From IMG/VR virus record IMGVR_UViG_3300037470_000793, positions 1-50,209 of that record: DNA of 50,209 nucleotides. One strand, given 5' to 3'. This DNA comes from a virus (taxonomy: Duplodnaviria > Caudoviricetes). Positions 8,262 through 46,787 of the stretch are shown here, one piece after another. Below the pieces are notes generated by a model, which searched no databases, had not been told where the DNA came from, and saw nothing but the letters and a program-made list of their open reading frames with translations. Position numbers and translations under genes: made by a program. How positions within the stretch are numbered: the first letter of the stretch is position 1; the number at the start of each line of letters is the position of its first letter.

Positions 8262-8500
8262 CAGACCACCCCGTTGACACCATCGAACGGGCTCTGTTGG
8301 TCGTACCTCAGCGCGAGCGCAGCGACGCGACCGTCGGCCGTGTCGCCATGCTTCTCGAGATGCCGGTTGCTGCGCATGATTCGTGCGAGCCTGACGCGGC
8401 GGAGCTCGAGGTACACCGGGCACATCTTGTCAACGGGCCCGCGGTTCGAGTGGCCGCCCAGCGTGCAGCGGCGGCTGCTGTGTTCGATGTACCCTTTCAT
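8261..8500 (-). CDS. Hypothetical protein
   Basis: Overlap-coupled at both ends. Confidence 0.6.
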   Translation of the reverse strand: MKGYIEHSSRRCTLGGHSNRGPVDKMCPVYLELRRVRLARIMRSNRHLEKHGDTADGRVAALALRYDQQSPFDGVNGVV

Positions 8501-11915: not shown

Positions 11916-11938
11916 ACTCATACGCGCGGCCCACAACC
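11916..11938 (-). promoter_or_regulatory. Phage promoter motif GGTTGTG-N4-GCGCGTATGAGT (replication operon)
   Basis: Minus strand reads ggttgtg-ggcc-gcgcgtatgagt; one of three conserved copies. Confidence 0.8.
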
Positions 11939-12029: not shown

Positions 12030-12052
12030 GGTTGTGACTCGCGCGTATGAGT
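12030..12052 (+). promoter_or_regulatory. Phage promoter motif GGTTGTG-N4-GCGCGTATGAGT (nucleotide-metabolism operon)
   Basis: ggttgtg-actc-gcgcgtatgagt; divergent from the 11916 copy. Confidence 0.8.
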
Positions 12053-16720: not shown

Positions 16721-19700
16721 CTAGACGAGACTCGGCGAGCTCGTCGTTCGTGGCTCGATACCCAGTCGCATCAGAGCCGTGTCGATGGTGCCAACCGTGT
16801 TCTGGATGTCATCGGTCGTGGGCAGCGGGTAGCCCATCTGCCGCAGGTGCGTGAGTGCGGGGAGCACCTGCGAGTAGTAGAAGTCGAGCTCCGCTGAGTT
16901 GAGCGCGTCCTGGTCGACGGGCCGCATCGTGAAGCCGAACGCTGCTGATGCGAGCGACGTCATGCGCGTCTTCACGCGGTCAGGGTCAGCGTACAGCCAT
17001 GAGCGGAAGCGGCTGAACGCCGGCACCACACCCAAGAGGTTCTGGTTCTTGTCGGTGGTGTAGAGCTGGCCGTCCGCGCCCTTCTCTGCCATGCCGACGA
17101 CATCGAGCACGTCGCGGATGCCGGGGACGTTGAAAACACCAGCGAGGGGGACCTTCTTCCCTTCGATGGGCGCACCGGTGAACGTGCTCTGCTCGTACAC
17201 GTAGTTCTCGAGCAGCGGCCGGATGGCCGGCAGGAAGGACGACACGAACTCACGAGCTCCGATGTGCAGGTCACTCATCGGCAGGTCGAGCATGACCGTG
17301 TCGTACACCGTCTCGCCGTTCTCGGTCCGAGCTCCGAACGGGATGGTGAACTGCTGTCCCATCCACGACGGCATGCGGTAGCGCTCCTCGTCGTAGTCCA
17401 GCCCGGCCGCAGTGAACGCGGCACCCTGGGCCTTCTTCACGGCGAGCAGGGCTCCCGGCGACTCGAGCATCTGGTGGACCTGGAAGGGGACGTTGGTCCG
17501 CATCCACTTGTAGAACGGGATGAGGTCGCGGATGGTGCCGGCCTCGGTGTCGGTGAGGTCGGCGTAGTCGCCGTGCCTCATCATCGTGAAGGTGCGCGCG
17601 TCGATGACGGAGCCGTAGGTGCGCAGGCCCCGCGCGAACGCGGCGGTACGCATCACGTTCTCTGTCAGCGTGCCGGCGCCCCTCGCGCCCTTCGTGTACG
17701 TCGTACCCCCTGGGATTTTCTCGAGCAGCATCTTCTTCGACTGCTCCGCTTCCTGGGTGCCCAGCGGCCGCGCCTCGGCGAACGCCCGGCCGTTGCCGGC
17801 GGTGACGCCCTGCGACACTGTCATCGCGGACAGGTCGCCGTACGTCATGTCCTCGATGCGGCGGCCGTTCATCGAGAACGTACCGTTGCGGCGGAGGGCG
17901 TCGATGAGGTCGCCGTCCTTGTCGAGGATGCGCATGGTTGCCCACTTGCCGGGCTTCCCTTCCACGAGCTCACGCGCCGCGAACCGTGTCCGACCGGCGA
18001 GGATGTAGTCGCTGATGTCGACGCCGCCGAGCATGTTGTTGAAGAATGCGCCGTAGAGGTTGCGAACGTGGAAGCCGGGCCACATCCACGTCGCGTGGCT
18101 CTTCCACCACGCGTTGAACTTGCGGAACTCCCCGTGGATGCCCTCGACTCCGCGGAAGCCGCGCACAGCTTCACGGAACTCCGCGGCCATGAACGACGGC
18201 ATCGCCAGTGTCTCGAACCCTGGGATGTCCAGGCGCTCGAACCCCTCGGCGTTCAGCACGTTCTCATCGGCAGCGAGCAGCGCGGGCTTCACTTGCGCGG
18301 CCTCGGTCTGCAGCCGAGTGGCCAGGCGGTTCGTCTCGTTGATGGCCTCAGCCATCTCGAGGCTCTCGCCTTCGAAGCTGCGCACGGCCTTGTCCTGCGC
18401 GGACAGGAGGCGCTGCTCGATGTCATCGGCTCGCCCGAGCCCGTTGCGCTCGAGCACCTCAGACGCCGCGCGTACCTGGTCCTCGGCGCCGAAGACGCCC
18501 TCGTCCGTCCAGTGGCGGCGCACGAGCGACGCGAGGCTCTTCGGGTCGGCGCCGACGGTACTGACCTCGCCGGAGGCCTTCACGGTGCGAACCGCGCTGA
18601 TGTGCCGGCCCGGCGGCTGGCCGCCCTTGTGGATGGCGACGATGCGCTCGGGGGGCACGGTCTCGTAGAAGCTGACGGCGCCGCTCTGCCCTGCACGAGC
18701 CTGCGCGGGGTCGGCCCAGAACTCGATGAGCACTCGGTCGTCGTCGAGAGCACCGTCGAGCACACGCGCAGCACTCCCGGCAGTTTCGTCGGCCGCGTAC
18801 ACCGTGTTGCGGGCGACGTCGCCGAAGCGGTCTGGCGTTGCGAGCACGCCCTTCTCTTTGTACGAGTCGAGCCGGTTGGCCCAGCCCTCGTGGAAGTAGC
18901 GCTTCGAACCCGCGGGGATGACCGCCGTACCAGGAGCGCCCTCGTCCAGCTTCGTCGACGCGTAGTGAACGTCGCCCCCCTCGTCGACCCAGCGCCAGAT
19001 GCCGTCCTCGAGCTCGTCAGCGTTGCCGGCCTTGACGGCGCTGTTCAGCGAGCGGCGCATCTGGTGGTCCGGGCGTTCGAAGTCCGCGACCTGACGCGCA
19101 GCGTTCTCGGGAACACCCAGGACTCGGCGCATGTCCTTCTCGTCGAGCACGTTCATCGCGTTGCGCAGGGTCTCGTACCCGCCGGCGATGTCGTCAGCCG
19201 CCTGGCGCGCGAGCCCCTCGAGCTCCTTCATCGCCTTCATCTGCATGACGGTGGCGTGCTTCGACGCGGCCGCAACATCCTCACCGAGCTTCTCGATGTC
19301 GTCGAGGAGCTCCTCGTTCACGACCCATCGGTAGCGGTTGAGGCCGACGGCGTTGCCGTTGAACACGGACTTGCCGAGGCCCAGCGTCTCCAACGTGCGA
19401 GCCGCCTGCCCCTGCAGCTTGGCGTGCACGGCGTTCACGTCCTTGGCGACGTGCTGCTTGAGTGCGTGCAGCGGGTCACGGATGAGCACCTGCTCACCCG
19501 GCAGCAGCGCGACACCCTCGGCAGCCATGCGCCGGCGGAGCTCGGTCTCGGCGGCTTCGTAGGGCAGCCGGGACACGTCACGAATCTGACGCTCGAGCCA
19601 CACGCGCGAACCACCGGGGTACGCTTCGCTGACCTTCGACCGGTTGACAGCTCTCCACGCTTCGCCAGTCGCCCACCGCGCGCCCTGCCCCTTCTGCAGC

Positions 19701-22570
19701 GCGAGCCGCGGGGCGCCCTCGGTCAGCCTAGCCGCGGAGAACGAGCGGTCGGCGTTCTTGAACAGGGTGACGTACTCTTCGACTTCGCCAGCTTCGTTCC
19801 TCACCCGAGTGATGACGGAGTCGTAGTCCTGCTCCTGTATCAGACGGGAGACGACTGTGCCGACGGTGTCCTGACGCTCCACGAGCTCGGCCGCCGCGGC
19901 CTTCACGCGCGGGTCCGCGCCCTCAGCCAAGATGCGGGCCTTGCCCTCGATGGCCTCGAACACCGGCCGGTAGCCGTCGGCCATCTCCTTCGCCACGTCC
20001 GTCGGGTAGCCGGCGGCCACATCACCGGCAGCGTCACCAGTGAGGTCGCGGATGAGCGGGTTCCGGGCGTACACGGCCACCTCGCGGTTGCGCGCGGTGA
20101 GAGCGGTGACTTGCTGCCTGGCGGTTACGAGGTCGCCGAGCGCGGCCTTCTTCGCAGCTATGAGCTCGTCGGGGCTGCCAACGACGACACCGGTCTTCTG
20201 GCCGAGCAGCGCGTTCTCAGCGTCGCGGACTGCGGCCTGGGCGGTCACGAGGTCGGCGTTGCGCGCGGCGGCCTCAGCCCCAACCTCGAGGTCACCGGCG
20301 GCCCGCAGATGGAAGCCGCGGAACGCGACCCCACCGTGCTCCATCTCGGTCAGTAGGTGGTCGCCGAAGGCCTCTTTGTCCATGTCGAGGGTGTCGTCGA
20401 CGACGCGGAAACGCTTGCCGTGGAACCGTGAGTTGCCCTCGTGTGTCACGATGCGCTGAGCATCCTCGACGCTCATGTCGTCGGTGTGCTGCCACGGGAA
20501 CTCGTCAAGGTCTGGTGAGAGGCCGTAGTTGGTGCGCATCGTGCGGCCGTTGTTCGAGACCTTGCGCATGAGCTGCAGGTACTCGAACGACTCGTCGCCG
20601 AACTCGGAGCGGAACCAGCTCTCGAGCTCCTTCGCCTCGGCCGTCTTCTCGGCCACGTTGTCGAGGGTGGTGCGGAAGCCCTTGAGCATGTCGTCGGTCG
20701 AGCCGTAGCCGACCTCCTCGGGGAAGAGCCGGAGCCATGAGTCCAGCCTCGATGCGAGGACCTGCTCCTGTGCTTCGTCCAGCTTCCCACTCCTGAACAC
20801 CCGGCCGAACTCCTGCTCGAAGGTCTTCGAGTTGAACATCCGCCCGGTCGAGTCCTCGACGTGGAAGATGTCCTCGGTGAGCGAGGCCTTCATGTGGGTG
20901 CTGAGCTTCTTCGACTCCGCGGCCATGATGCCGGCGAGCGTGTTGGTGCGCATCGCTGCGGCGTGCGGAGCGAAGTGAGCCGTGCCGCGGCCGACCTGCT
21001 CGGACAGCGACATGAGCGGCGACCCGATGGCGCCGAAAGCCCCACCGCTGAGCTCCTTGGCGACCGCGCGGTTCGAGCGCTGCAGCAGCGAGAAGCCGCC
21101 CTCCCAGAACGCCCGGAGGTCGTCGACGGACGCGGCGCCCTTGCCGACCATCTTCTCGAGCCGCATCTCCCCGGACATGCCGGCGAAGAACCGGCGTCCG
21201 ATGGAGAAGTCCAACCGCGTCGTGACGGCCGGCATGAGCCGCCGCGGCGCCAGCCGGAGGCCGAGCACGGGGATGTTGAGCCGCATGCTCCACCCGCCGC
21301 GGAGCGCCTGAGCCGCCCGGGCCTCCTGGTAGAAGCCCTTGAGCTTCCGCGCTTCCTTGCCGAAGCCGGGCCGGAGACCGGTGCCGCGGTTGACGAAGCC
21401 CTTGAGCATCTCGTCGGCCGAGCTCTTGTTGATGCCGAACGCCTTCATCAGCTTCGCGGAGCCCTGGCCCCACTTGCCGCGGTACGCAAGCGTCGCAGCG
21501 TCGTCGGCCAGCGAGGTCATCTCGCGAAGCGCGCGCTGGGCGCCCTCACTCGACAGGGTGTTCAGAACGCCCGGGAGCGCGTCGGTGTGGACCGGGGACA
21601 GCGCGCTCGCGGCCTTGCCCCAGAACCCGGTGCTCGCCCGAGCCGCGGCCGCCTCGGCCACGGACGGGACCTTGAGCACGGCGCCGGCCGCCATCTCGAC
21701 GGTCTCTGCGCCGGCATCCATCGCGACTTGGAAGAGCTCCGCGCGGTCGAGGTTCTTCATGACGACGTCTTCGCCGAGCTCCTTGGCGACCTTCTCGAGG
21801 CCCTCCGAGGCGATGCGGCTCGTGATGGTGGCGGACTCGGTGAACGCGGCGCCGATGCCAGCCTTGGCCCCGGTCTTCGCCAGGATGGACTTGCCGATGC
21901 CGGCGGTGCCGAACGACGCCCACGTCAGGGGGTCGAGCGCGACGTCACCGATGAACCCCAGGGTGGCCGTGAACCAGTTGCGCTCCATGCCCAACTTCTC
22001 GACGAGCACGTCGTCCCACGACACGTCGCTGTTGCCCGTCAGCGCATCGCCCATGTTCTTCCACACGGACTCTTTCCCCCAGTCCATGACTATTTCTGGG
22101 AGAATCTCCGCCGGTCGCGAGATGACCTCGAACACAGTGTCCAGGCCGGAGACGTCGAAGAACTTGCCGATGCCTCCCATGACGGCGTCGAAGAACCCGC
22201 CGCCCTCCTCGACCTGTCGCCCCTGCTCCTCGGCAATCTGCTGCGCGAGCGCGGGGTTCGCCTGGCCGATGCGAGCCAGGGCGCGGTCGGTCTGCGACGC
22301 AGCCTCCTCGGGAGTCCACGCGCGCGGGTCGTTGCCCGGACCGACGGCACCGTTCGTCCATGCCGACATGGCGCTCAGCCCGTTCTGGTACCCAACGGCG
22401 CCGGCGGCCGGAGGAGCCCAAGGCGTCGGTGTCCCCGCCACGGCGGGGTTCAACGCTTGGAGCATCTGGTCGTCGGCGGTGAGGCCGAACGTCGGCGGGT
22501 ACATCGGCTGAGGGAAGCTCAGCGGCATGGGCTGCGGGAACGCGAGTGGTGAGGGTGCGGGAAGCGGCAT
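16721..22570 (-). CDS. Giant internal virion/ejection (polyvalent) protein, 1949 aa, with ART-like segments
   Basis: Size and position after the tail genes; N-terminal GFIGDVALDPLTW; C-terminal PGFHVRN and IPFYKWMRTN motifs typical of podoviral internal proteins. Confidence 0.8.
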   Translation of the reverse strand: MPLPAPSPLAFPQPMPLSFPQPMYPPTFGLTADDQMLQALNPAVAGTPTPWAPPAAGAVGYQNGLSAMSAWTNGAVGPGNDPRAWTPEEAASQTDRALARIGQANPALAQQIAEEQGRQVEEGGGFFDAVMGGIGKFFDVSGLDTVFEVISRPAEILPEIVMDWGKESVWKNMGDALTGNSDVSWDDVLVEKLGMERNWFTATLGFIGDVALDPLTWASFGTAGIGKSILAKTGAKAGIGAAFTESATITSRIASEGLEKVAKELGEDVVMKNLDRAELFQVAMDAGAETVEMAAGAVLKVPSVAEAAAARASTGFWGKAASALSPVHTDALPGVLNTLSSEGAQRALREMTSLADDAATLAYRGKWGQGSAKLMKAFGINKSSADEMLKGFVNRGTGLRPGFGKEARKLKGFYQEARAAQALRGGWSMRLNIPVLGLRLAPRRLMPAVTTRLDFSIGRRFFAGMSGEMRLEKMVGKGAASVDDLRAFWEGGFSLLQRSNRAVAKELSGGAFGAIGSPLMSLSEQVGRGTAHFAPHAAAMRTNTLAGIMAAESKKLSTHMKASLTEDIFHVEDSTGRMFNSKTFEQEFGRVFRSGKLDEAQEQVLASRLDSWLRLFPEEVGYGSTDDMLKGFRTTLDNVAEKTAEAKELESWFRSEFGDESFEYLQLMRKVSNNGRTMRTNYGLSPDLDEFPWQHTDDMSVEDAQRIVTHEGNSRFHGKRFRVVDDTLDMDKEAFGDHLLTEMEHGGVAFRGFHLRAAGDLEVGAEAAARNADLVTAQAAVRDAENALLGQKTGVVVGSPDELIAAKKAALGDLVTARQQVTALTARNREVAVYARNPLIRDLTGDAAGDVAAGYPTDVAKEMADGYRPVFEAIEGKARILAEGADPRVKAAAAELVERQDTVGTVVSRLIQEQDYDSVITRVRNEAGEVEEYVTLFKNADRSFSAARLTEGAPRLALQKGQGARWATGEAWRAVNRSKVSEAYPGGSRVWLERQIRDVSRLPYEAAETELRRRMAAEGVALLPGEQVLIRDPLHALKQHVAKDVNAVHAKLQGQAARTLETLGLGKSVFNGNAVGLNRYRWVVNEELLDDIEKLGEDVAAASKHATVMQMKAMKELEGLARQAADDIAGGYETLRNAMNVLDEKDMRRVLGVPENAARQVADFERPDHQMRRSLNSAVKAGNADELEDGIWRWVDEGGDVHYASTKLDEGAPGTAVIPAGSKRYFHEGWANRLDSYKEKGVLATPDRFGDVARNTVYAADETAGSAARVLDGALDDDRVLIEFWADPAQARAGQSGAVSFYETVPPERIVAIHKGGQPPGRHISAVRTVKASGEVSTVGADPKSLASLVRRHWTDEGVFGAEDQVRAASEVLERNGLGRADDIEQRLLSAQDKAVRSFEGESLEMAEAINETNRLATRLQTEAAQVKPALLAADENVLNAEGFERLDIPGFETLAMPSFMAAEFREAVRGFRGVEGIHGEFRKFNAWWKSHATWMWPGFHVRNLYGAFFNNMLGGVDISDYILAGRTRFAARELVEGKPGKWATMRILDKDGDLIDALRRNGTFSMNGRRIEDMTYGDLSAMTVSQGVTAGNGRAFAEARPLGTQEAEQSKKMLLEKIPGGTTYTKGARGAGTLTENVMRTAAFARGLRTYGSVIDARTFTMMRHGDYADLTDTEAGTIRDLIPFYKWMRTNVPFQVHQMLESPGALLAVKKAQGAAFTAAGLDYDEERYRMPSWMGQQFTIPFGARTENGETVYDTVMLDLPMSDLHIGAREFVSSFLPAIRPLLENYVYEQSTFTGAPIEGKKVPLAGVFNVPGIRDVLDVVGMAEKGADGQLYTTDKNQNLLGVVPAFSRFRSWLYADPDRVKTRMTSLASAAFGFTMRPVDQDALNSAELDFYYSQVLPALTHLRQMGYPLPTTDDIQNTVGTIDTALMRLGIEPRTTSSPSLV

Positions 22571-27509: not shown

Positions 27510-28241
27510 CTACGGCCCCAGCGTCAACGGGATGCGGTCACGCAGGCTCGTACGCGCACGCAGACGCGTGGGGGTTTCACGGCCCCACGCCACGTTCTCG
27601 TCCGGGTGAACCTCGAGCACCTTGCGCGCCTGGCGCAGCACTTCGCCGTAGAGGCCGAACTGCTCGGCAGCCTTCTGCGACACGCTGCCCGTTTCCTTGA
27701 GGAACAGGTGGCCGGCGGCCCACGCCGGCAGCGCCGGGTGGAACTCGTCGGGGAGGTCCGGGAAGTCGTCGTTGGCGACCAGGTCGACGGGCACGCGAAG
27801 GTACAGCGCGGAGACGTCGTAGTCGACGTCCGGCGTCGGGACGAACTTCACGACGTACAGAATCTCCGCGACGTCGCGCGTGGAGGCAGTGAGGTAGTAG
27901 TACGCCGGCGTTTGCGGCAGCGTCTCGTACTCGAACCGCGCGCGAAAGCCCGCGGCGGGAGCGAGGCGCTCAAGCATCCGGCCGCGGATGAGCGACCCAC
28001 CCATGACGGACAGGTTGAATGCGCGGTGGATGCTGACGTTGGACGGGAGCTCGAGCTCGTCGACGGCCTCGGCGATGGTGGTCTCCCACTCCGTAAACAG
28101 CCAGGGCCAGAGCTCTTCCGCCGTGAACGTCGTCTGCGCGAGGTTCAGTGCGCGGTCCACTTCGGCGTCGGTGAAGAAGTCGGCGACGTCCTCGCCGATG
28201 CGTTCGCGAACGTCGGTGCGCATCTCGGTGAGTGTGCTCAT
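27510..28241 (-). CDS. Head-tail adaptor / tail tubular protein A-like
   Basis: MSTLTEMRTDVRERIGE...ALNLA...WPWL...PTPD...LPDEFHPAL. Confidence 0.8.
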   Translation of the reverse strand: MSTLTEMRTDVRERIGEDVADFFTDAEVDRALNLAQTTFTAEELWPWLFTEWETTIAEAVDELELPSNVSIHRAFNLSVMGGSLIRGRMLERLAPAAGFRARFEYETLPQTPAYYYLTASTRDVAEILYVVKFVPTPDVDYDVSALYLRVPVDLVANDDFPDLPDEFHPALPAWAAGHLFLKETGSVSQKAAEQFGLYGEVLRQARKVLEVHPDENVAWGRETPTRLRARTSLRDRIPLTLGP

Positions 28242-39972: not shown

Positions 39973-40248
39973 GAGGGCGGCGGGACTACTAAAGGCGCCG
40001 TGTGACCGCCCTCGCGCTCCGCTACAGGAAGCAGGTGTTTGGAGCAGCGGGACACCTGCGGAACCCGGAGCGGCGGTACGCGCGTCCACGCGCATCGCCT
40101 ATTTCGCCCCCGTGTGCACCTCAACGTCAGGGAGCGGGACGCTGCAATAGCCGGGAGGGGCGGCTGTACAACCGCTGCCCTCCCGCTCGCGCCGGGCGTC
40201 ACCCGGGAAAACCCGTGGCGAGACACGGGGAGGGCTGACTATGCCCTC
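39973..40248 (-). ncRNA. Candidate structured RNA between portal and scaffold genes
   Basis: Series of nested inverted repeats in a long intergenic gap (see findings). Confidence 0.4.
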
Positions 40249-40254
40249 GGTGAC

Positions 40255-42123
40255 CTATCTACGGCTTGCCGCTCCGGGCTGCGCCGACGCTCCGCGGAGG
40301 GAGCTCTTCGCATTCTCGAGCGACTGACCGTACTGGAACATGGCCTGCTGGCTGTTCTGAGCGAGCTGGTCCGCCTGAACCTCTTCCGGCGGCTTCACGA
40401 TTTCGCGGACGAGGTCCTCGTCGAGGCCTGCCTCACGCAACACCCACTGGAAGAGCGATGCGCGGTCGGTCTCCGGCATCGGGGCCAGCATGTTGCTGAC
40501 GAAGATGGCCCGCTGGAACCGCTCCTCACGCGTCATGTTCTCCTTCGGCGTGATGGAGAGCTCGATGTGCGCCTCGATGGCGATGTCCTCGTTCGTCCAC
40601 TTCCACTCGAACTCTTCGCCCGTGTCAGCGACGAACAGCATCATGCGCTCGCGGTTGTAGAACTTCTGCATGAGCTGCAGCGCGGTGCGCGCGATGTCGA
40701 TGTACCACTCCTCGAGCGAGGACCGGCGCTCAGCCTGACGCGCCTGGCCGGCGGTCGTGACGAGCTGCGCCTCGGTCGCGGTGGTGCGCTTCGATGGGAA
40801 GACGCCGCGGGTGACCTCGTTAGCGCCAGTGGCCTCTTCGATTTCGAGCTGGATGTTCTCCTGCAGCCCGTAGATTTCCTGCTGCACGGGCTTGATGTCG
40901 ATGTTGCCGAGCTCCTGGAACGAGTGGCTGTTCTCGAGGCCGACGTACGCCATCCACTCGTCGCTCTCGAGCGCCTGCCGCGCCTGCTGGCCGAGCGCGT
41001 CCTTCGGGCCGAAGACCTTCGGGATGACACGCAGACCGTGCGTCGCGATGTGCGAGCGGTACGCGTCGAGCTCCTCGAGCGACGGGAAGATGATGCGCAT
41101 GTCGCCGAGGCCCTCGAGGTTGTCGGGGTCGTCGCGGATGACGAGCGGCTTGAACGGGTTCCTGTCCTCGAGGTCCACGTTGAACATCAGCGGGTTCACG
41201 CGCTGGTGCAGGATGAGCGTCGTGCTGTTCTTCGGGAAGATGGTGACGAGGCCTGTCTCGAAGTCCCACAGCTCGACGACCGTCACACGCGCGTCATCGT
41301 TCGCGTCGTCGGAGCCAAGGCCTTCGACGTCCGCGTAGTCGATGCCGCCGCTCAGAGTGCTGTCACCCTCGAGCTCATCCAGCATGCGGGTGCCTTCGCG
41401 CTCACCGTATCGGTCGAGCACGAACTTCCGCCACTGGGGGTTGTTCTGCACCTCGGGCCCCGGCATCTTCGTGTACTGCGCGGTCCAGCGCACGTCTTCC
41501 TGTTGCTTCGCGCTGATGTCGTAGCGGATGTCCGAGTAGCGCACGTAGTCGACGCAGACCCGGTCGCGCAACACGATGGGAACCTCGCGCGTGAGCTCGA
41601 CGTACTCACCCATGTTCTCTTCGGTGACCGTGATGCCCTGCGCTTTCAGCTCCATGAGCTGCATCTTGAGCGCGTCTTCCGGCACGTCTTCTACTTCCAC
41701 GTCCTCGACGTAGTCGTAGTACACCTTCACCCAGCCGATGTCCGCGAGGAGCGCGTCCTTGATGGCCTTCTTGGCCCGGCGCTGCATCTTCGTGTCGGAC
41801 ATCGCCATGTTCAGCGCGCGAGAGGCCGCGATGGCCTGCGCCGGCGTGCCCCTGCCGATGCGCTTCGCGATGAACTCAACGTCGACCGCGGTCAGCGAAG
41901 AGAACATCGTGTCGATGGTACCGATGCCCTTCACGACGTTGACGCGGTGCCCGTCGTCGTCAACCTGCTCTTCGTTCGGCTCGTTCTCGTACCGAGCGAT
42001 GAACGCCTTGTACTCGGGCTCGCGCTTCTCGTAGTCCACGTCAGCCATCTTCAACCGACGCTGGTAGACCTTCAACATGCTCTCTTCGTCTTCGTACACG
42101 CGGAAGACGCTATTCTTCGCCAT
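40255..42123 (-). CDS. Portal protein (P22-like podoviral)
   Basis: 622 aa directly after TerL; GWVKVYYD, ATGANEVTRG...TTATEAQL. Confidence 0.9.
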   Translation of the reverse strand: MAKNSVFRVYEDEESMLKVYQRRLKMADVDYEKREPEYKAFIARYENEPNEEQVDDDGHRVNVVKGIGTIDTMFSSLTAVDVEFIAKRIGRGTPAQAIAASRALNMAMSDTKMQRRAKKAIKDALLADIGWVKVYYDYVEDVEVEDVPEDALKMQLMELKAQGITVTEENMGEYVELTREVPIVLRDRVCVDYVRYSDIRYDISAKQQEDVRWTAQYTKMPGPEVQNNPQWRKFVLDRYGEREGTRMLDELEGDSTLSGGIDYADVEGLGSDDANDDARVTVVELWDFETGLVTIFPKNSTTLILHQRVNPLMFNVDLEDRNPFKPLVIRDDPDNLEGLGDMRIIFPSLEELDAYRSHIATHGLRVIPKVFGPKDALGQQARQALESDEWMAYVGLENSHSFQELGNIDIKPVQQEIYGLQENIQLEIEEATGANEVTRGVFPSKRTTATEAQLVTTAGQARQAERRSSLEEWYIDIARTALQLMQKFYNRERMMLFVADTGEEFEWKWTNEDIAIEAHIELSITPKENMTREERFQRAIFVSNMLAPMPETDRASLFQWVLREAGLDEDLVREIVKPPEEVQADQLAQNSQQAMFQYGQSLENAKSSLRGASAQPGAASRR

Positions 42124-43570
42124 GTGCTACTCCCTCGACCACGAAGGTCGGCTTACGAACTCCGCCGCGGTGGCCGAGTAGTCGGCGCGGTGGCTTGAGA
42201 ACCTGCTGGAAGACGTGCCCGTAGGTGTCCGGGTTGTACTCCCTCGCTGCCTCAGGAAGGTCTTCCTTCGGCGCGAACGGAAGAAGAACGGTCGCAACGT
42301 ACCGCAGCGCATCCACGTAGTGCGATGTCCAGTCGTGGACGGGGTCCTTGTGGGCCTTGTTCCCGTCGGCGTCCGTCTTCCACTTGTGGGACGAGAGCGC
42401 CTGAGAGACGATTTCCGCTTCCTTCGACACGAACACGCGGTTGCCGGCCATCATGTTGTTGAGGATGCGGAGCGAGAAGTCCTGCGGCCGCTTCGGCACC
42501 GGACCGACAGGCACGCCCGCCGTGTTCAGGTCTGTGATGACGCTGGTGCCGGTGCTGGGGTTCCGCTGGATGCCGGCGGGGTCGCCGTAGTCGCCGGCGG
42601 TCTTCGCGCCGCCGAAGCGCTCACGCAGCCGGTCGTGGTAGGCCGCGGCCCAGTCCCGTGCGGTCCACTCCTTCTCGCCGATGGCGTCGAGGATGTTGGC
42701 GACCGCGAGGCGGATACGCGGGCCCTTGTACGTCTCGCCGGTGAGCTCTTGCTTGTCGACCCACTTCACCTGCAGGAAGATGCAAACTCCCAGGTCTCCG
42801 AACCCGAAGTCCCAGCCGGTGTAGAGCGGGAGCGCCGGGTCGTACTCGAGGTCGAGGCAGTTCTCCTGGGGGTTCCAGTAGGGGAAGACGCCGCCCTCGA
42901 CGAGGCCGACGAACTTGCCCTCGATTTCCTGCTCGGCCCAGCGGCCGTGGTAGTTCGCCTTGAGGTTGTCGACGTAGCCCTTCGGCAACGTGATGTTCTG
43001 CTCGGTCGGCGCGTTGTACCAGGTCGCGCCGGAGACCTTCGTCAGCGAGTCCTCGTGGAAGACCCGCCACATCCAGTCGTAGCCGTTCGGCGTCGACGAC
43101 GTGAAGCCGGCGATGCGGTAGCCCTGCTGCCGGAGCCGCGCGGTGAGGATGTTCCACGCCGCGTGGGTGCAGTTGCGGCCCTCCTCGATGAAGAACCAGG
43201 CGTACTCCGGGCCACGCATCCAGTCCGGCTTGTCGAGCGAACGGAGCCGGATGACGGTCCCGTTGATGAGCGTCAGCTCCTTGGTCGACTTCTTGTAGTC
43301 CTTCGACCAGTTGGCCAGGCCGGTCTTCTCGACCATGGCCTCGAGCTGCGGAAGGATGTTGTCGTTCAGGACGGGGTACGTGCTCGCCGCGATGACACCG
43401 CGCGGAGCGTGGTACTGCCCTGAGGGTTTCGGCTGCAGCGACAGGCGGAGCCCGCGCGCGATGCCGGCGAACGTCTTGCCGGAGCCGAGGCCGCCGATGA
43501 AGGCGGAGTACAGGTCGTCCCCCAGGACGAACTCTGTCTGTGCCCCAGGGTTCAGGTCGAGCTCAGCCAT
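42110..43570 (-). CDS. terL: Terminase large subunit
   Basis: Walker A GGLGSGKT, Walker B FFIEE, SSTPNG, RNase H GWDFGFGD, HDWTSHYVDALRY. Confidence 0.96.
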   Translation of the reverse strand: MAELDLNPGAQTEFVLGDDLYSAFIGGLGSGKTFAGIARGLRLSLQPKPSGQYHAPRGVIAASTYPVLNDNILPQLEAMVEKTGLANWSKDYKKSTKELTLINGTVIRLRSLDKPDWMRGPEYAWFFIEEGRNCTHAAWNILTARLRQQGYRIAGFTSSTPNGYDWMWRVFHEDSLTKVSGATWYNAPTEQNITLPKGYVDNLKANYHGRWAEQEIEGKFVGLVEGGVFPYWNPQENCLDLEYDPALPLYTGWDFGFGDLGVCIFLQVKWVDKQELTGETYKGPRIRLAVANILDAIGEKEWTARDWAAAYHDRLRERFGGAKTAGDYGDPAGIQRNPSTGTSVITDLNTAGVPVGPVPKRPQDFSLRILNNMMAGNRVFVSKEAEIVSQALSSHKWKTDADGNKAHKDPVHDWTSHYVDALRYVATVLLPFAPKEDLPEAAREYNPDTYGHVFQQVLKPPRRLLGHRGGVRKPTFVVEGVAHGEE

Positions 43571-43614
43571 CCTTTACATCTCCCTCCCGGAAGTCAAGCT
43601 TAGGGCTCGAACCT

Positions 43615-43776
43615 TTACTTCGCCTCGACGAAGATGCCGCCCTGCGGCAGGAGGTCCACGGGCATGTCGAAGAGTCGGTCGACCTCCATGCCCTTCTGGC
43701 GATGGCGCGACGTGCAGAGCGAGAAGCCCGCGGCGCCCCAGGCGGCCGACAGGCAGATGAGCAGGAAGAGCATCAT
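43615..43776 (-). CDS. Small protein with N-terminal hydrophobic segment (53 aa)
   Basis: MMLFLLICLSAAWGAAGFSLC... Confidence 0.55.
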   Translation of the reverse strand: MMLFLLICLSAAWGAAGFSLCTSRHRQKGMEVDRLFDMPVDLLPQGGIFVEAK

Positions 43777-43778
43777 GG

Positions 43779-43919
43779 CTAGAACCCCGGGTCCGCGTCG
43801 GGCACGAGCACCGCGTAGCGGTACGCGTACAGCCAGGCGCAGGAGGCGCAGTCGGCCGCGGCCGGAGCCGCAGCGGGGTCCTGGTCCGGGTGGTCGGTGC
43901 AGTGGACTCGTATGGACAT
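43779..43919 (-). CDS. Small Cys/His protein (46 aa)
   Basis: CTDH...CASC; TGATG coupling. Confidence 0.55.
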   Translation of the reverse strand: MSIRVHCTDHPDQDPAAAPAAADCASCAWLYAYRYAVLVPDADPGF

Positions 43920-44098
43920 CAGTCCCATCCCTCTCGAATCCGCTCCCGGCGGGCGAAGTCCTCGCCGTGGAGCCGGCCCTTGCGGAAGCGCTTCCGCTTC
44001 GCGTTGCCGTGCCAGTGGTATGTCGCCCGACGCCGCTCGCTGTACCAGCAGAGCCGGCCGCAGTGCGGAGTCCGGTGACGGGGTGGAGGTGGCCTCAC
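43919..44098 (-). CDS. Small Arg-rich protein (59 aa)
   Basis: GTGA overlap with the Pup stop; ...[14 protein letters not shown]... Confidence 0.6.
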
Positions 44099-44292
44099 TG
44101 CCCGCCCTTCTGGACGAAGCCCTTCACGAACTCCTCGGCGTTCTCCTCGAGGACGGCGTCGATGTCGTCCAGGATGTCGTCGAGGTCGCGGCGGAGCGCG
44201 TCAGACGAGCGCTTCGGCTGCTTCGACTCGTCCTGATGCACCTGCGTTGGCCGGTGAATCGAGGCCCGAGCCTTGTGGACGCGGCCCGTCAT
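44095..44292 (-). CDS. pup: Prokaryotic ubiquitin-like protein Pup (phage-encoded)
   Basis: C-terminal [30 protein letters not shown] closely matches the Pup consensus DDLLDEIDDVLEENAEDFVRAYVQKGGQ; 65 aa; G-rich RBS. Confidence 0.93.
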
Positions 44293-44539
44293 AGGGCTCC
44301 CCCCTCACGATGAGTGGCAGTACCCTGTCGGCCGCTTTCAGACCGTCGACGAGGCGCTGGTGGGTGGACCGGTGGTGCTTCGCCTCGGCCGTCTGTACGA
44401 GCTCGGTGAGGCTGTCGATGACGAGGGCCAGGAGCGCGCGCGTCGCGTGTTTGGTCGCTAACGCCGGTGTGGGACCGCCCTCAACAGCGCCGGGGCTTTC
44501 TCCCCCTCCCACGGGGGCTCCGGGGCCGCGAGTAGCCAC
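44201..44539 (-). CDS. Hypothetical protein overlapping the Pup 5' end
   Basis: Helical core [15 protein letters not shown]...; 92-nt overlap with pup. Confidence 0.5.
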
Positions 44540-44550
44540 TGCCCTTGCAT

Positions 44551-44877
44551 CTACCCGAACAGCTTGTCAGCCGTCGGGACGTCTTTCGTGTCTTCGGCGG
44601 CCTTGCCCTGAGGCGACGGCCGGCCGACGGAGTACTCGAGCGCCTTGATGGTCGCCTTGAGGCGGTCCGCCGGCGAGAGAGCCGCGAAGGACCCCCTGCC
44701 GAGCGCCGCGTCCAGGAGGGCGCCGGTCAGTTGGTCGGCGGCCGTCTCGAGCTTGCGGAGCGCCCGCTCTTCCGCCGGGAGCGCGGCCTTGGCGGCCCGG
44801 GCCTCCGCGGCCTTGGCCGAGGCCTCGCGCGCGAAGTTCGGGTCTGCGAAGGGCGGCGCTGGTCTGGTGTCGGCCAT
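44551..44877 (-). CDS. Putative terminase small subunit
   Basis: First gene of the late operon; PF...AREASAKAA N-terminus; helical, ...ALEYSVGRP. Confidence 0.55.
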   Translation of the reverse strand: MADTRPAPPFADPNFAREASAKAAEARAAKAALPAEERALRKLETAADQLTGALLDAALGRGSFAALSPADRLKATIKALEYSVGRPSPQGKAAEDTKDVPTADKLFG

Positions 44878-45130
44878 GGTGGCGCTCAAGGTGTCTCCCT
44901 GGTGCTTTCGGGGCCCCCCGGACCGTCCGCGGCGATGCAGTTCCGGTTGGATATACCACATCGGGTATATCGGCGGCCCTGGTCCGGCTCAGAGCCGGAC
45001 GGACGGGTGGCGGGGCGCGGGGGGCGGGGAGCTCGGCGATGGTTGCGGGAGTCGAAACACCCACAGACCCGAGCTCTGAAACCCCCAGGGGCGAAGGTCT
45101 CTGGACCTAGGTCCTTTGACGTAGCCCTCT

Positions 45131-45153
45131 ACTCATATGCGCAGGCCACAACC
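45131..45153 (-). promoter_or_regulatory. Phage promoter motif GGTTGTG-N4-GCGCATATGAGT (packaging/structural operon)
   Basis: Minus strand reads ggttgtg-gcct-gcgcatatgagt; third copy of the motif. Confidence 0.8.
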
Positions 45154-45159
45154 ACTTTT

Positions 45160-45597
45160 GGAAAAGCCCTGGTCAGAGGCCCTTTTCTACATGCAAGGCG
45201 TTGCAGCAAGAATCACACGCTTGTGGTCATTTCGGAGTCCCGCGGGGCCCCCCGGCGGGTCCCATCCGGCGAAATCTGGGTCTACAGGGTAGTCAAGTCC
45301 CTCGTGCGTTCGGCCTAGGGCGGGGTGACCCGTCCCGGTGTGCACGGCCTACGTCCTTCGGCCTGGCCCGCCCGCCCTCAGCCTAGGTCTAAAGGTGTAG
45401 TACATGTACACACTATGTACATAGGTAGGGGGATGGCGCATGGCGTATGGCCTAGGGCGTATGGCGTAGTCAGTGGTGCCCACACACCACCAGTAGGCGT
45501 AGTACGTACGGCAGCGCGCCCCCGCCCTTGGGCCTAGGGCGAGGGCGCGTGAAAGCGCCAGTGCGGGGTGCGTGTGAGCAGCAGTGGGTGAGGCCGG
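45160..45597. other. Non-coding palindrome-rich region: candidate pac site, physical genome end or origin
   Basis: AT-rich core with palindromes gtacatgtac (45400-45409) and ctatgtacatag (45413-45424); several cctagg; lies between the late and early modules. Confidence 0.45.
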
Positions 45598-45936
45598 CTA
45601 GTCCTTCCAGCCTAGGCCTCGGTCACGCCGCTCCATCAGCTCGCCGTAGGCCTCAAGGGCCGCGGCGCTATCCCCGACGGGGAGCTCGTCGCGTGGAACG
45701 TCGGGGTCGCGGTAGGCCAAACGCCCGTACTGCAGGACGTCCGCCACGTACGTGTCGCCTAGGTCATACGACCCTTGGGTGTAGGGCGAGCTCACCGCGC
45801 ACATCCATCGGGCGTAGTCCACGTGGGGGTCGGCGGAGTAGGCCTTGAGGACCTTCCACGTCCACCCATCGTCCGACACGTAGACCGCATACGGCCTATC
45901 CACTGGTCGGGTCTTGCCCATGCTCGTGCGTGCCAT
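45598..45936 (-). CDS. Hypothetical early protein
   Basis: GKTRPVDRPYAVY...GWTWKVLKAY...ARWMCAVSSPYT.GS..LGDTY; AGGA RBS. Confidence 0.8.
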   Translation of the reverse strand: MARTSMGKTRPVDRPYAVYVSDDGWTWKVLKAYSADPHVDYARWMCAVSSPYTQGSYDLGDTYVADVLQYGRLAYRDPDVPRDELPVGDSAAALEAYGELMERRDRGLGWKD

Positions 45937-45953
45937 GTCCTACTCCCTTCGCC

Positions 45954-46787
45954 CTAGCTTGCCTGGTCCGGCTTGACGAACCCATCCCACGCGCCGGCTA
46001 CGCCTCTTGCCGACCCCTTAGCCCGAAGGCCTACGACCACGCCGGCCGGGTCGTCCACCCGACTGTCGGACGTATCGGCGTCGACCACGGGGAAGCCGGC
46101 GAAGGTGGCCGGCAACGGGTGACCCTTGACCGTGGCAAACACCACGGCCACGTTGGCACCCGACCTAAGCCATTCGAGTGCTTCATCCCCCGAACGGGGG
46201 TTCTCGCTCACCGAGAAGACCAGCCTGTCGTAGGCCGTTGGGCCTAGGCTGCGCTGGGCCGCCGGCGCCTTCGTGTAGTCGTACACTCGGACGTCGGGTA
46301 GGTCGAAGAGCCTAGGCGCGATGAGCTCCCACCGTAGGTCACTCGCCACGTTCGGGCGGAAGTCGATGGGCCCGTATCGCCTCACCTGCTCGGCGAGCTC
46401 GTGGGCCAAGAGGGTGACGAACGCCTGGGGCTCTTGGGCTAGGGCTTTCGTCTTGGCCACCCTCGCCCGTCTGACCGATGGCAGCGTCCCCTTGCCGGCC
46501 GTGACCAGGACACACGCACTAGTGCATGCGGCCGTGCGCCACATGCACACGTCGTAGTCCCCGGACATGTCTGCCGGCGCAAGGCTTAGGCCAACCGCCC
46601 TACGCGCACTCATCCCGAGCTTGTGTTGGGCCTCGGGTAGGGTGAGCAGACGGGGGAGGCTCGCGTAGCCCATCTGGCCTACGTAGAACGCTCGGAGTCG
46701 GCGTTTGGCCTCGGCCACGGTCATGTCGGCTGGGTCGAACGGCCCATGCTGCTCGAGCTCGAGGGTTAGGGCTTTCGCCCTACTCAC
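45954..46787 (-). CDS. GP88-like (radical-SAM-related) protein
   Basis: LSLAPA...C-x6-C-x3-C...GKG, RPNVASDL.W, YDYTK, NVAVVF, D..D.R..DP.GVVVGLRAKG. Confidence 0.82.
   Translation of the reverse strand: MSRAKALTLELEQHGPFDPADMTVAEAKRRLRAFYVGQMGYASLPRLLTLPEAQHKLGMSARRAVGLSLAPADMSGDYDVCMWRTAACTSACVLVTAGKGTLPSVRRARVAKTKALAQEPQAFVTLLAHELAEQVRRYGPIDFRPNVASDLRWELIAPRLFDLPDVRVYDYTKAPAAQRSLGPTAYDRLVFSVSENPRSGDEALEWLRSGANVAVVFATVKGHPLPATFAGFPVVDADTSDSRVDDPAGVVVGLRAKGSARGVAGAWDGFVKPDQAS

What the first reader, a model, noticed from the sequence alone, without database searches (positions are those of the whole stretch)
44095..44292. Phage-encoded Pup (prokaryotic ubiquitin-like protein) in the packaging operon
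Seen: a 65-aa ORF ending [34 protein letters not shown]-coupled to the next gene, between the putative TerS and TerL and downstream of a phage promoter motif. Established: Pup is the actinobacterial tag of the Pup-proteasome system. Dop deamidates its terminal Gln, PafA ligates it to substrate lysines, and Mpa/ARC binds its helical region. No pafA, dop, mpa or prcAB is present here, so this Pup must use host enzymes. Its N-terminus is Arg/Lys/His-rich, unlike the Gly/acidic N-terminus of M. tuberculosis Pup, which is the part that starts threading into Mpa. Inference: the phage boosts, redirects or jams host pupylation late in infection, for example to recycle amino acids, degrade defence proteins or act as a decoy. 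It also points to a host with a Pup system.
Basis: partly seen in the sequence, partly recalled or inferred. Interest (0 to 1): 0.93.

Follow-up and report, generated by a model that had tools for sequence, protein, structure and literature searches.

The report
Phage-encoded Pup tag beside the terminase
A complete 50-kb phage genome from sediment carries its own intact copy of Pup, the bacterial ubiquitin-like degradation tag, but none of the enzymes that attach or read it, so the virus most likely feeds extra tag into its host's protein-tagging machinery late in infection.

Summary
A 65-aa ORF on the minus strand (44292 to 44095) ends in QKGGQ-stop. It scores 73 bits on Pfam Pup (cut-off 27) and 68 bits on TIGR03687 (cut-off 41). 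The window is a whole virus record with capsid, portal, adaptor, TerL, DNA polymerase and primase. No Dop/PafA, proteasome, AAA ATPase or integrase was found.

It is not misassembled host DNA. Two other viral contigs and contigs from three further metagenome runs show the same junctions. A relative with 71-81% identical core genes keeps pup at the same site.

The conserved C-terminal half is under purifying selection, while the basic N-terminal half evolves fast.

The gene is not unique. 38 IMG/VR loci and the cultured Streptomyces phage Dagobah encode Pups, and 39 of these 40 (window included) end in GG[Q/E]. None has pupylation enzymes nearby, whereas 77 of 80 cellular pup loci do.

Best reading: a ligation-competent tag supplied to host Dop/PafA, raising pupylation. 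Published passages favour this over jamming. The function itself is untested.

I found no paper on phage Pup. This scan has already reported phage Pups on other DNA.

The parts
44095..44292 (-). pup: 65-aa prokaryotic ubiquitin-like protein, ends QKGGQ-stop
   Evidence: ORF. PF05639 E 3.6e-20, 73.1 bits, cut-off 27, residues 3-65 on profile positions 5-69 of 69. TIGR03687 68.4 bits, cut-off 41.45. Residues 30-65 align without gaps to Pup chains of 3M91, 3M9D, 7PX9, 7OXY and 4BJR.
44293..44550 (-). 258-nt spacer between the TerS-like gene and pup, with an SD-like run before the pup ATG. Highly conserved; either non-coding (pac or regulatory site?) or an overlapping small ORF.
   Evidence: Alignment of the window, L002, L003 and L004 has 92% mean column identity, with long invariant runs even against L004. 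One frame on the pup strand is open in both phages, and the two long indels (6 and 18 nt) are multiples of 3. The count there is 7 synonymous against 14 non-synonymous codons, so coding is unproven.
44551..44961 (-). putative small terminase (TerS-like), 136 aa from the first start, perhaps 108 aa from the ATG at 44877
   Evidence: No HMM hit. Conserved at the same site in L002 (98.5%), L003 (84%) and L004 (62%). Weak Atlas structural neighbours are named small terminase.
45131..45153 (-). third copy of the repeated motif GGTTGTG-N4-GCGCRTATGAGT, heading the packaging and structural gene string; candidate phage promoter
   Evidence: 3 copies in the window against 0 in 100 shuffles. Alignment. 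Kept in L002 and L003. Promoter function is inferred.
43919..44098 (-). 59-aa ORF whose GTG overlaps the pup stop; a variable insertion of about 175 nt
   Evidence: Absent from L002 and L003. Run X3 has a joint from 43918 to 44097 at depth 20.3, beside a contig that carries the insert at depth 7.29. No hit in Pfam, NCBIfam, PHROG or PADLOC. Atlas scores are below 0.9.
43779..43928 (-). 49-aa ORF, conserved small gene of unknown function
   Evidence: A 47-aa homologue starts 1 nt after the pup stop in L002 and L003 (91% identity).
43615..43776 (-). 53-aa ORF, conserved small hydrophobic protein
   Evidence: 100% identical in L002 and L003.
42110..43570 (-). large terminase subunit (TerL)
   Evidence: PF03237 E 9.5e-9. 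phrog_2 E 3.1e-30.
40255..42123 (-). portal protein (SU10-like)
   Evidence: PF23899 E 1.2e-10, 40.9 bits, cut-off 30.

Best explanation
The gene encodes a full-length, ligation-competent Pup that belongs to the phage. It is probably expressed with the packaging and structural genes. The phage has no ligase, deamidase, unfoldase or proteasome, so the protein can only act through the host's Pup system. Host Dop would deamidate the terminal Gln. Near-identical relatives already encode Glu and skip this step. Host PafA would then ligate the tag to lysines, and ARC/Mpa would read it where a proteasome is present. The most likely effect is to raise pupylation flux late in infection, in two ways: by adding to a scarce free-Pup pool, and possibly by occupying Dop so that depupylation falls. 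More host protein would then be tagged and turned over, for example to recycle amino acids or reprogramme proteostasis during virion production. Shown: identity, phage ownership, conservation, absence of the enzymes, and recurrence in many phage lineages. Inferred: timing of expression, use by host enzymes, and direction of the effect. I put about 0.9 on 'genuine phage Pup used through host enzymes' and about 0.5 on 'net effect is more pupylation'.
For: Family: both curated HMMs are well above cut-off. 22 of 36 aligned residues match the solved Pup segment; that is my count from the alignment. The terminal GGQ is intact. Phage ownership: the record is complete by CheckV and has MCP phrog_9953, an SU10-type portal and adaptor, TerL, DNA polymerase and primase. 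The same pup context occurs in L002 and L003. In L004, TerL is 81%, portal 71% and MCP 71% identical, and pup sits at the same site. Logan contigs of runs X2, X3 and X13 bridge pup to its phage flanks. Selection: the window differs from L002 by 5 nt in pup, 4 synonymous plus Q65E. Against L004, dN/dS is 0.16/0.61 in the C-half and 0.82/0.56 in the N-half. Ligation matters: 39 of 40 viral Pups end in GG[Q/E]-stop, a feature that docking on Mpa alone would not need. Recurrence: 38 IMG/VR loci plus Dagobah. Of the 38 viral records, 0 have PF03136; of 39, 0 have PF00227. By tblastn, 0 of 40 viral loci have Dop, ARC, PrcA or PrcB, against 77 of 80 cellular pup loci (queries verified). Direction of effect: free Pup is rarely seen in lysates unless overproduced (PMC5358908, passages). 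Pupylated substrates outcompete free Pup at Mpa, free Pup is directed to PafA, and free Pup binds Dop better than conjugates do (PMC6476560, passages).
Against: There are no expression data and no biochemical test. The host is unknown, so the presence of PafA and Dop in it is assumed. The phage's own proteins are not lysine-poor: K is 3.7% of residues, with 26 K in TerL, 28 in portal and 13 in MCP. Raised pupylation could therefore hit phage proteins too. The N-terminal half is far more basic than in any of 79 sampled cellular Pups and evolves fast. That could mean a changed fate at the unfoldase rather than a plain extra supply. The literature passages come from mycobacterial systems and may not transfer to this host. 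Pup sits in different modules in other phages: helicase, ribonucleotide reductase, tail, and lysin/primase neighbourhoods. 'Late' timing is therefore not general.
Confidence: 0.55

Rival explanations
1. Decoy or jam: abundant free phage Pup occupies Mpa/ARC, PafA or Dop. Host pupylation-dependent degradation is then blocked and phage proteins are spared.
For: It is a small protein in a densely packed gene string and could be made in bulk. The phage proteins carry many lysines and so are potential targets. PMC10665810 proposes that mycobacteriophage proteins avoid pupylation through lysine deserts (passages). The basic, fast-evolving N-terminal half differs from all 79 sampled cellular Pups and could engage the unfoldase pore poorly. 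Free Pup has higher affinity for Dop than conjugates do (PMC6476560).
Against: Pupylated substrates outcompete free Pup at Mpa (PMC6476560), so free Pup is a weak blocker there. An Mpa decoy would not need a ligatable end, yet 39 of 40 viral Pups keep GG[Q/E], and close relatives switch Q to E, the ligation-ready form. Blocking Dop would raise pupylation, not lower it.
Confidence: 0.2
2. Re-purposed tag: the phage Pup is ligated by host PafA, but its divergent basic N-terminal half gives the conjugates a new property. That property could be a different fate at the unfoldase, nucleic-acid binding, or a role linked to DNA packaging. The tag might mark particular host defence proteins or phage proteins.
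For: The N-half has net charge +4 in the window, +7 in L004 and +5 in L028, against 0 of 79 cellular Pups at +4 or more. dN/dS in the N-half is about 1.5 between the window and L004. Pup lies 0.45-1.3 kb upstream of TerL in five groups whose TerL proteins fall in different PHROG families: window/L004 phrog_2, L028 phrog_38, L013 and L029 phrog_9, L019 phrog_979. In L024 it lies 2.6 kb upstream.
Against: PafA is the only known source of target choice, and nothing in the phage looks like an adaptor: no conserved partner gene lies downstream across lineages. The position next to TerL may only reflect a permissive insertion site near a genome end. Other lineages place pup elsewhere. A high N-half dN/dS on 32 codons is equally what relaxed constraint on a disordered linker would give.
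Confidence: 0.12
3. Neutral passenger: a host pup picked up by chance and carried without benefit to the phage.
For: Pup is tiny and easily captured. Actinobacterial phage genomes are mosaic. The window's TerL region tolerates small variable inserts such as the 59-aa ORF indel.
Against: Pup is kept at the same site in a relative whose core genes are only 71-81% identical, with purifying selection on the functional half. Of 40 viral copies, 39 are intact to the last residue, in about 17 sequence groups (my own grouping of the sequences printed). Many are translationally coupled to phage genes.
Confidence: 0.07
4. Artefact: host DNA wrongly joined to a phage contig during assembly.
For: The conserved 3' half of pup attracts contigs of many other organisms: the depth spike at 44010-44277 reaches 348 against about 20 elsewhere. 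Short-read assemblers break there.
Against: Independent contigs L002 and L003 carry the same arrangement. Logan contigs bridge the pup 5' half to the spacer and TerS-like gene (X3 44189-44679, X2 44249-45019, X13 44134-44376). Others bridge the pup 3' end to downstream phage ORFs (X2 43776-44143, X3 43815-44143). No host-type neighbours are present.
Confidence: 0.01

Closest known systems
Cellular Pup of Actinomycetota (Pfam PF05639, NCBIfam TIGR03687; solved segments in PDB 3M91/3M9D with the Mpa coiled coil, 7PX9 with Mpa-proteasome, 7OXY/7OY3, 4BJR fused to PafA)
   Same: Same family by both curated HMMs. Same length class. The same C-terminal region aligns without gaps to the solved segments, with 22 of 36 residues identical by my count. 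Same terminal GGQ. As in cellular Pups, close relatives carry either Q or E at the end.
   Different: It is encoded by a phage, with no dop, pafA, arc/mpa or prcBA nearby; 77 of 80 cellular loci have them within 4 kb. The N-terminal half has net charge +4, against a cellular median of -3 and maximum of +1.
Streptomyces phage Dagobah HUN42_00036 / QMP84414.1 (MT711977.1), annotated 'ubiquitin-like protein Pup'
   Same: A stand-alone Pup-family gene in a phage of an actinobacterium (host Streptomyces coelicolor M600). It is translationally coupled to the next phage gene and ends in GGE.
   Different: 78 aa, with an acidic N-half (net -5). The end reads VQVGGE rather than VQKGGQ. It sits between the endolysin and a primase/polymerase, not next to the terminase. 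Only residues 47-65 of the window's Pup match it by tblastn (78.9%, E 0.4). The describing paper's main text holds none of the words ubiquitin, Pup, pupylation or proteasome; its supplements could not be opened.
Orphan second pup copies in Actinomycetota MAGs (L041 in G039, L105 in G041)
   Same: These pup genes lie away from dop, pafA and prcBA. L041 is the closest match in the genome collection (56%) and shares part of the window's N-terminal pattern.
   Different: They lie among cellular genes: a MerR-type response regulator, a KaiC-like ATPase and an adenylate cyclase in L041; SnoaL, a copper chaperone and a radical SAM protein in L105. Their genomes also hold a canonical pup next to dop and pafA.
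Ubiquitin genes carried by eukaryotic viruses such as baculovirus v-ubi (recalled from general knowledge, no call)
   Same: A virus encodes the host's small protein tag but relies on host conjugation enzymes.
   Different: Different fold and chemistry (beta-grasp ubiquitin and an E1-E2-E3 cascade versus disordered Pup and a single ligase) and a different host domain. This is an analogy only.
Earlier notes of this scan on phage Pups in other genomes (e1-3296034, e1-5867291, e1-6161393, e1-6172423, e1-3445471, e1-6001538)
   Same: Stand-alone Pup in a phage genome without the pupylation enzymes.
   Different: Those notes concern other DNA. This window has no proteasome-type ATPase, no conserved partner gene and a full-length rather than shortened Pup. 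It adds the terminase-adjacent position and the basic N-half.

Membership tests
Pup (prokaryotic ubiquitin-like protein; PF05639 / TIGR03687) | Scores above the curated cut-offs of the family models | tested here: met
   PF05639 73.1 bits against 27. TIGR03687 68.4 bits against 41.45. Six-frame search of the record gives 71.9 bits.
Pup (prokaryotic ubiquitin-like protein; PF05639 / TIGR03687) | C-terminus Gly-Gly-Gln or Gly-Gly-Glu as the very last residues (the ligation site) | tested here: met
   Ends QKGGQ-stop. The 98%-identical relatives end QKGGE-stop.
Pup (prokaryotic ubiquitin-like protein; PF05639 / TIGR03687) | Small size (about 60-70 aa), with a variable N-terminal part and a conserved C-terminal part of about 30 aa | tested here: met
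   65 aa. In the alignment of 20 Pups, the invariant columns all lie in residues 38-64.
Pup (prokaryotic ubiquitin-like protein; PF05639 / TIGR03687) | The conserved region corresponds to the segment that folds on Mpa, PafA and Dop in solved complexes | tested here: met
   By sequence only. Residues 30-65 align without gaps to Pup chains of 3M91, 3M9D, 7PX9, 7OXY/7OY3 and 4BJR, at E 1e-9 to 4e-5. Binding itself was not tested.
Pup (prokaryotic ubiquitin-like protein; PF05639 / TIGR03687) | Intrinsic disorder of the free protein | not tested
   No structure or disorder prediction was run. The property is stated for cellular Pup in PMC8223512 (passages).
Pup (prokaryotic ubiquitin-like protein; PF05639 / TIGR03687) | ATP-dependent isopeptide ligation to substrate lysines by PafA, after Dop deamidation for GGQ forms | not testable with these tools
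   Needs biochemistry or in vivo expression. See the decisive next steps.
[quoted passage not shown] | pup lies next to dop, arc/mpa, prcB/prcA and pafA | tested here: not met
   The window has 0 hits for PF03136, PF00227 and PF00004, and none by tblastn with Streptomyces ARC, Dop, PrcB and PrcA. Control: 77 of 80 cellular pup loci are positive. The gene is a Pup but is not part of a PPS locus.
Phage late (packaging/structural) operon gene | Same strand as terminase, portal and capsid genes, tightly spaced or overlapping with them, behind a shared upstream signal | tested here: inconclusive
   Same strand as the TerS-like gene, TerL, portal, scaffold-like ORF and MCP. The pup stop overlaps the next start. 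The repeated motif lies at 45131-45153. There are no transcript data.

The most novel reading that the evidence does not exclude
Supplying their own Pup is a general, convergently acquired takeover strategy of phages that infect bacteria with a Pup system, a prokaryotic counterpart of virus-encoded ubiquitin. In this clade the tag has been re-engineered. Its basic, fast-evolving N-terminal half, and its fixed place just ahead of the terminase, would give the conjugates a fate that host Pup does not give. For example, they might stall on or bypass the unfoldase, or mark specific host defence or phage packaging proteins, rather than merely adding to the Pup pool.
Probability: 0.15. Interest if true: 0.88.

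Novelty: new variant of a known kind. Interest (0 to 1): 0.72.

Why it matters
Pupylation is the only known bacterial tagging system that sends proteins to a proteasome. It has been studied almost wholly as a cellular stress and virulence pathway. A virus-borne tag without enzymes, recurring in many unrelated phage lineages, would show that phages manipulate this pathway.

It also makes several open questions testable. One is whether free Pup limits pupylation in vivo. Another is what the variable N-terminus of Pup does. A third is whether pupylation acts for or against phages. A cultured system exists for this: phage Dagobah on Streptomyces coelicolor, a host with genetic tools.

The finding also gives a host marker for uncultured phages, since the host should carry PafA. 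Natural Pup variants may also be useful for Pup-based proximity-labelling tools.

Tried and rejected
Default tblastn of the Pup against GenBank phages (E limit 1e-3) and megablast of 40000-46000 found nothing. The short, acidic query and the low-complexity filter explain the first result. At E limit 10, two weak hits appeared. Dagobah's own Pup as query found only Dagobah. 'Rare in cultured phages' therefore rests on an insensitive search.

PHROGs holds no Pup family that the protein matches; the best was phrog_4380 at E 0.06.

The maximum-likelihood tree of 106 distinct Pups (70 columns) was the quick tree, because the careful search did not finish. 65 of 103 inner branches are open. The window joins L002 (98) and, weakly (81), L004, L028 and L015. 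No host group can be read from it.

There are no tRNA genes. No integrase or serine recombinase was found. PADLOC gave no hit for 8 proteins.

A sigma-70 promoter and terminator scan of 43500-45500 found none. My k-mer scripts found no further shared upstream motif.

I looked for a conserved partner gene downstream of pup across 43 loci and found none.

I tested whether the orphan pups in MAGs (L041, L105) lie in prophages. Their neighbours are ordinary cellular genes and share nothing with the window.

Lysine content of the phage proteome was computed but has no matched baseline. It is used only descriptively.

The Atlas search for the 59-aa ORF scored below 0.9 and was not informative.

Expression: the look-up of sequencing runs listed no RNA holder. 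This says nothing about expression either way.

The genome search has limited sensitivity. With phrog_2 it missed the window's own TerL, although hmmscan finds it. Its negative results are therefore backed by the tblastn control.

Literature search was badly framed (any 2 of 6 terms) and is uninformative. Searches are the ones that bear on 'not in print'.

I did not run complex prediction. A Pup-PafA or Pup-Mpa pair would pass by likeness to solved structures and would not change my odds, and no open partner candidate emerged. I did not run structure prediction or fold search, because Pup is disordered.

Supplementary files of the Dagobah paper and the other papers were not opened. They may hold annotation tables that mention the Pup gene.
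Full report
OBSERVATION. The ORF lies on the minus strand. Its ATG is at 44292 and its stop at 44095-44097. It has 65 codons and translates to [65 protein letters not shown]. A purine-rich Shine-Dalgarno-like run ends 5 nt before the ATG. Third-position GC is 0.92 in a 66% GC genome. The stop overlaps the GTG of a 59-aa ORF.

FAMILY. The protein matches Pfam Pup (PF05639) at E 3.6e-20 and 73.1 bits (cut-off 27), over residues 3-65. It matches NCBIfam TIGR03687 at 68.4 bits (cut-off 41.45). Against PDB chain sequences, residues 30-65 align without gaps to Pup in 3M91/3M9D (with the Mpa coiled coil), 7PX9, 7OXY/7OY3 and the PafA-Pup fusion 4BJR. By my count from the printed alignment, 22 of 36 residues are identical. 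In the large protein collection, 1036 of 1059 candidates scored E 0.001 or better, and all 120 listed carry PF05639. In an alignment of 20 of them, the invariant columns all fall in residues 38-64. The protein is a Pup by every sequence criterion I could test. Ligation itself cannot be tested here.

IT IS A PHAGE GENE. The window is a whole IMG/VR virus record rated 100% complete by CheckV. It encodes:
- a major head protein (phrog_9953, E 1.7e-56);
- an SU10-type portal and adaptor;
- TerL;
- a family-A DNA polymerase and a primase;
- a ClpP-type 'head maturation protease';
- a protein with a sigma-70 region 4.

No Pup ligase/Dop, proteasome subunit, AAA ATPase, tyrosine integrase or serine recombinase or tRNA was found. 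The closest TerL in 50,697 GenBank phage records is about 26% identical, so the phage has no cultured near relative.

Misassembly is excluded in three ways. First, viral contigs L002 and L003 from other samples carry the same gene order with a 98% identical Pup. Second, 14 of 24 listed metagenome runs hold at least half of the sampled words of 42000-46000. Third, Logan contigs bridge both sides of pup. X3 (44189-44679), X2 (44249-45019) and X13 (44134-44376) join the pup 5' half to the spacer and TerS-like gene. X2 (43776-44143) and X3 (43815-44143) join the pup 3' end to the downstream phage ORFs. The depth spike over 44010-44277 in that call comes from contigs of other organisms whose pup 3' halves are at least 90% alike. 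Their loose ends diverge on both sides.

NEIGHBOURHOOD. The order on the minus strand is:
- the repeated motif at 45131-45153;
- the TerS-like ORF (44551-44961);
- a 258-nt conserved spacer;
- pup;
- the 59-aa ORF;
- a 49-aa ORF and a 53-aa ORF;
- TerL, then portal, a scaffold-like ORF and MCP.

The motif GGTTGTG-N4-GCGCRTATGAGT has three copies in the window against none in 100 shuffles. The copy ahead of the packaging genes is kept in L002 and L003. Its promoter role is inferred. The TerS assignment rests on position and weak Atlas neighbours only.

The 59-aa ORF is a variable insertion of about 175 nt. It is absent from L002 and L003, where a 47-aa gene starts 1 nt after the pup stop. In run X3 the form without it (depth 20.3) coexists with the form that has it (7.29). 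The ORF has no relatives that I could find.

SELECTION. Between the window and L002/L003, pup differs at 5 nucleotides. Four are synonymous and the fifth turns the last residue from Gln to Glu. That is the one change that Pup biology tolerates, and it makes the tag independent of deamidation (PMC8223512, passages). In L004, TerL is 81%, portal 71% and MCP 71% identical, and pup sits at the same site at 56% identity. There, dN/dS is 0.16/0.61 in the C-terminal half and 0.82/0.56 in the N-terminal half. The samples are small, but the contrast is clear.

OTHER PHAGES. A scan of IMG/VR with a Pup alignment confirmed 38 loci out of 375 pattern matches. Reading the frames to their stops, 37 of these 38 end in GG[Q/E]-stop. 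With the window and Dagobah the figure is 39 of 40; L022 ends in AQGQ. The 40 give 28 distinct sequences: 27 were scored, and L025 was dropped there because it is cut at a contig end. I place them in about 17 groups; this is my own reading, not a formal clustering.

None of the 38 records has PF03136 and none of 39 has PF00227. Six of the 39 records are rated at least 90% complete. As a control, I took ARC, Dop, PrcB and PrcA from a Streptomyces pup locus, checked them with Pfam, and ran tblastn against every locus. 77 of 80 cellular pup loci have at least one of the four within 4 kb, and 0 of 40 viral loci do.

In GenBank phages, only Streptomyces phage Dagobah carries an annotated example ('ubiquitin-like protein Pup', 78 aa, ending VQVGGE). 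There is also one weak hit in an unannotated faecal phage record.

Contexts differ between lineages. TerL lies 0.45-1.3 kb downstream in the window clade, L028, the L013 group, L019/L020 and L029. These TerL proteins fall in PHROG families 2, 38, 9 and 979. In L024 the distance is 2.6 kb. A DnaB-type helicase follows pup in the L018/L036 group. A ribonucleotide reductase lies near L005, and tail genes follow L010. Endolysin and primase/polymerase flank pup in Dagobah. In 22 of the 40 viral loci the next ORF starts within 3 nt of the pup stop.

CELLULAR COMPARISON. The N-terminal half (all but the last 33 residues) of the window's Pup has net charge +4 and three histidines. Seventy-nine distinct cellular Pups have a median of -3 and a maximum of +1. 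Among 27 distinct viral Pups, four reach +4 or more: the window, L002, L004 and L028. Start codons were chosen by a rule, so single values may be off.

The tree does not resolve origins. The three cellular loci without pupylation neighbours are two MAGs that also have a canonical pup next to dop and pafA, and one Saccharibacteria MAG with no PF03136 at all. The two orphan copies lie among ordinary cellular genes.

MECHANISM. Three things are established for cellular Pup (PMC8223512, passages). GGQ forms need Dop deamidation. PafA ligates the terminal Glu to lysines. Pup folds as two short helices on PafA/Dop and as one long helix on the Mpa coiled coil. The phage protein keeps all of that region and the ligatable end, so I take it to be processed by host enzymes. 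This is inference.

For the direction of the effect, I rely on three passages. [quoted passage not shown] Pupylated substrates outcompete free Pup at Mpa, so free Pup is directed to PafA. Free Pup binds Dop more tightly than conjugates do (both PMC6476560). Extra free Pup should therefore raise pupylation and be a poor blocker of the unfoldase.

The near-universal GG[Q/E] end also argues for ligation rather than mere docking. Against a simple 'more tag' model stand two points: the lysine-rich phage proteins and the atypical N-terminal half.

NOVELTY. Full-text searches gave no paper whose title or abstract concerns a phage-encoded Pup. The searches were: pup + pupylation + phage (67 papers, 25 listed); 'prokaryotic ubiquitin-like protein' + bacteriophage (30 papers, 25 listed); pupylation + actinobacteriophage (0); and phrases such as 'phage-encoded Pup'. 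I saw search listings and abstract starts only.

The Dagobah paper's main text holds none of the four words ubiquitin, Pup, pupylation or proteasome, and its supplements were closed. The nearest published idea is that mycobacteriophage proteins avoid pupylation through lysine deserts (PMC10665810, passages).

This scan has noted phage Pups on other DNA several times. Those notes agree with mine but are not independent evidence.

LIMITS. There are no expression data and no host assignment, and all function is inferred. The viral survey depends on two peptide patterns and is a lower bound. The genome search can miss true matches.

Noticed in passing
window 7593-8423 (-): A ClpP-family protease (PF00574 E 2.4e-30; phrog_94 'head maturation protease' E 7e-45) with an N-terminal extension of about 105 aa. 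It sits beside the DNA polymerase in the replication gene string, about 30 kb from portal, scaffold and capsid genes, where prohead proteases normally lie. It could be a displaced prohead protease or a second proteolysis function.
   Followed up: partly
window 44293-44550: The 258-nt stretch between the TerS-like gene and pup is better conserved between the window and L004 than the pup N-terminal coding half. It has long invariant runs, its two long indels are multiples of three (a 1-nt gap also lies in the 5' part), and one frame is open in both phages while overlapping both neighbours. It may be a pac or regulatory site, or an unannotated overlapping small gene.
   Followed up: partly
window 43919-44098 and the pup 3' end: The 59-aa ORF is an insertion of about 175 nt that begins inside the last codons of pup. 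It is bounded by imperfectly repeated sequence, so the insert supplies the present GGQ-stop end. Forms with and without the insert coexist in run X3. It could be a tiny mobile insert or a recombination scar.
   Followed up: partly
window 11916-11938 (-), 12030-12052 (+), 45131-45153 (-): A three-copy 23-nt motif, GGTTGTG-N4-GCGCRTATGAGT, with 0 copies expected by chance. Two copies face away from each other around 12 kb, and one lies ahead of the packaging genes. The phage also encodes a protein with a sigma-70 region 4 (2052-2603, PF04545 at its cut-off), which is a possible reader of the motif.
   Followed up: partly
L067 (Candidatus Saccharibacteria MAG contig, Pup at about 4001-4243): A 0.8-Mb Saccharibacteria MAG holds a Pup (65.6 bits) but no Pup ligase/Dop anywhere in the assembly. 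Saccharibacteria live on Actinobacteria (recalled knowledge). An orphan Pup there could be a misbinned phage or host contig, or a tool aimed at the host bacterium.
   Followed up: no
L041 (G039:C4:153479-153634) and L105 (G041:C175:8548-8727): Two Actinomycetota MAGs each have a second, orphan pup far from their canonical dop-pup-pafA locus. The orphans lie among ordinary cellular genes: a MerR-type response regulator, a KaiC-like ATPase and an adenylate cyclase; and SnoaL, a copper chaperone and a radical SAM protein. L041 is the closest Pup to the window's in the genome collection.
   Followed up: partly
L004, L013, L019, L024, L028, L029 and the window: Pup lies 0.45-2.6 kb upstream of the large terminase in phages whose TerL proteins belong to different PHROG families (2, 9, 38, 979). 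This could be a permissive insertion site near a genome end or a functional link to packaging. It was not tested against a null model.
   Followed up: partly
window 16721-22570 (-) and 27510-28241 (-): A 1949-aa ORF has no PHROG hit. An SU10-type adaptor and portal suggest a podovirus-like particle with a giant internal or ejection protein, in a phage presumably of an actinobacterium.
   Followed up: no
window 44010-44277: In four metagenome runs, summed contig depth over the pup 3' half is 3-15 times that of the flanks. The pup genes of many other community members are at least 90% alike at DNA level there. Short-read assemblies break at this point, which may hide phage pup genes in other data sets.
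   Followed up: no
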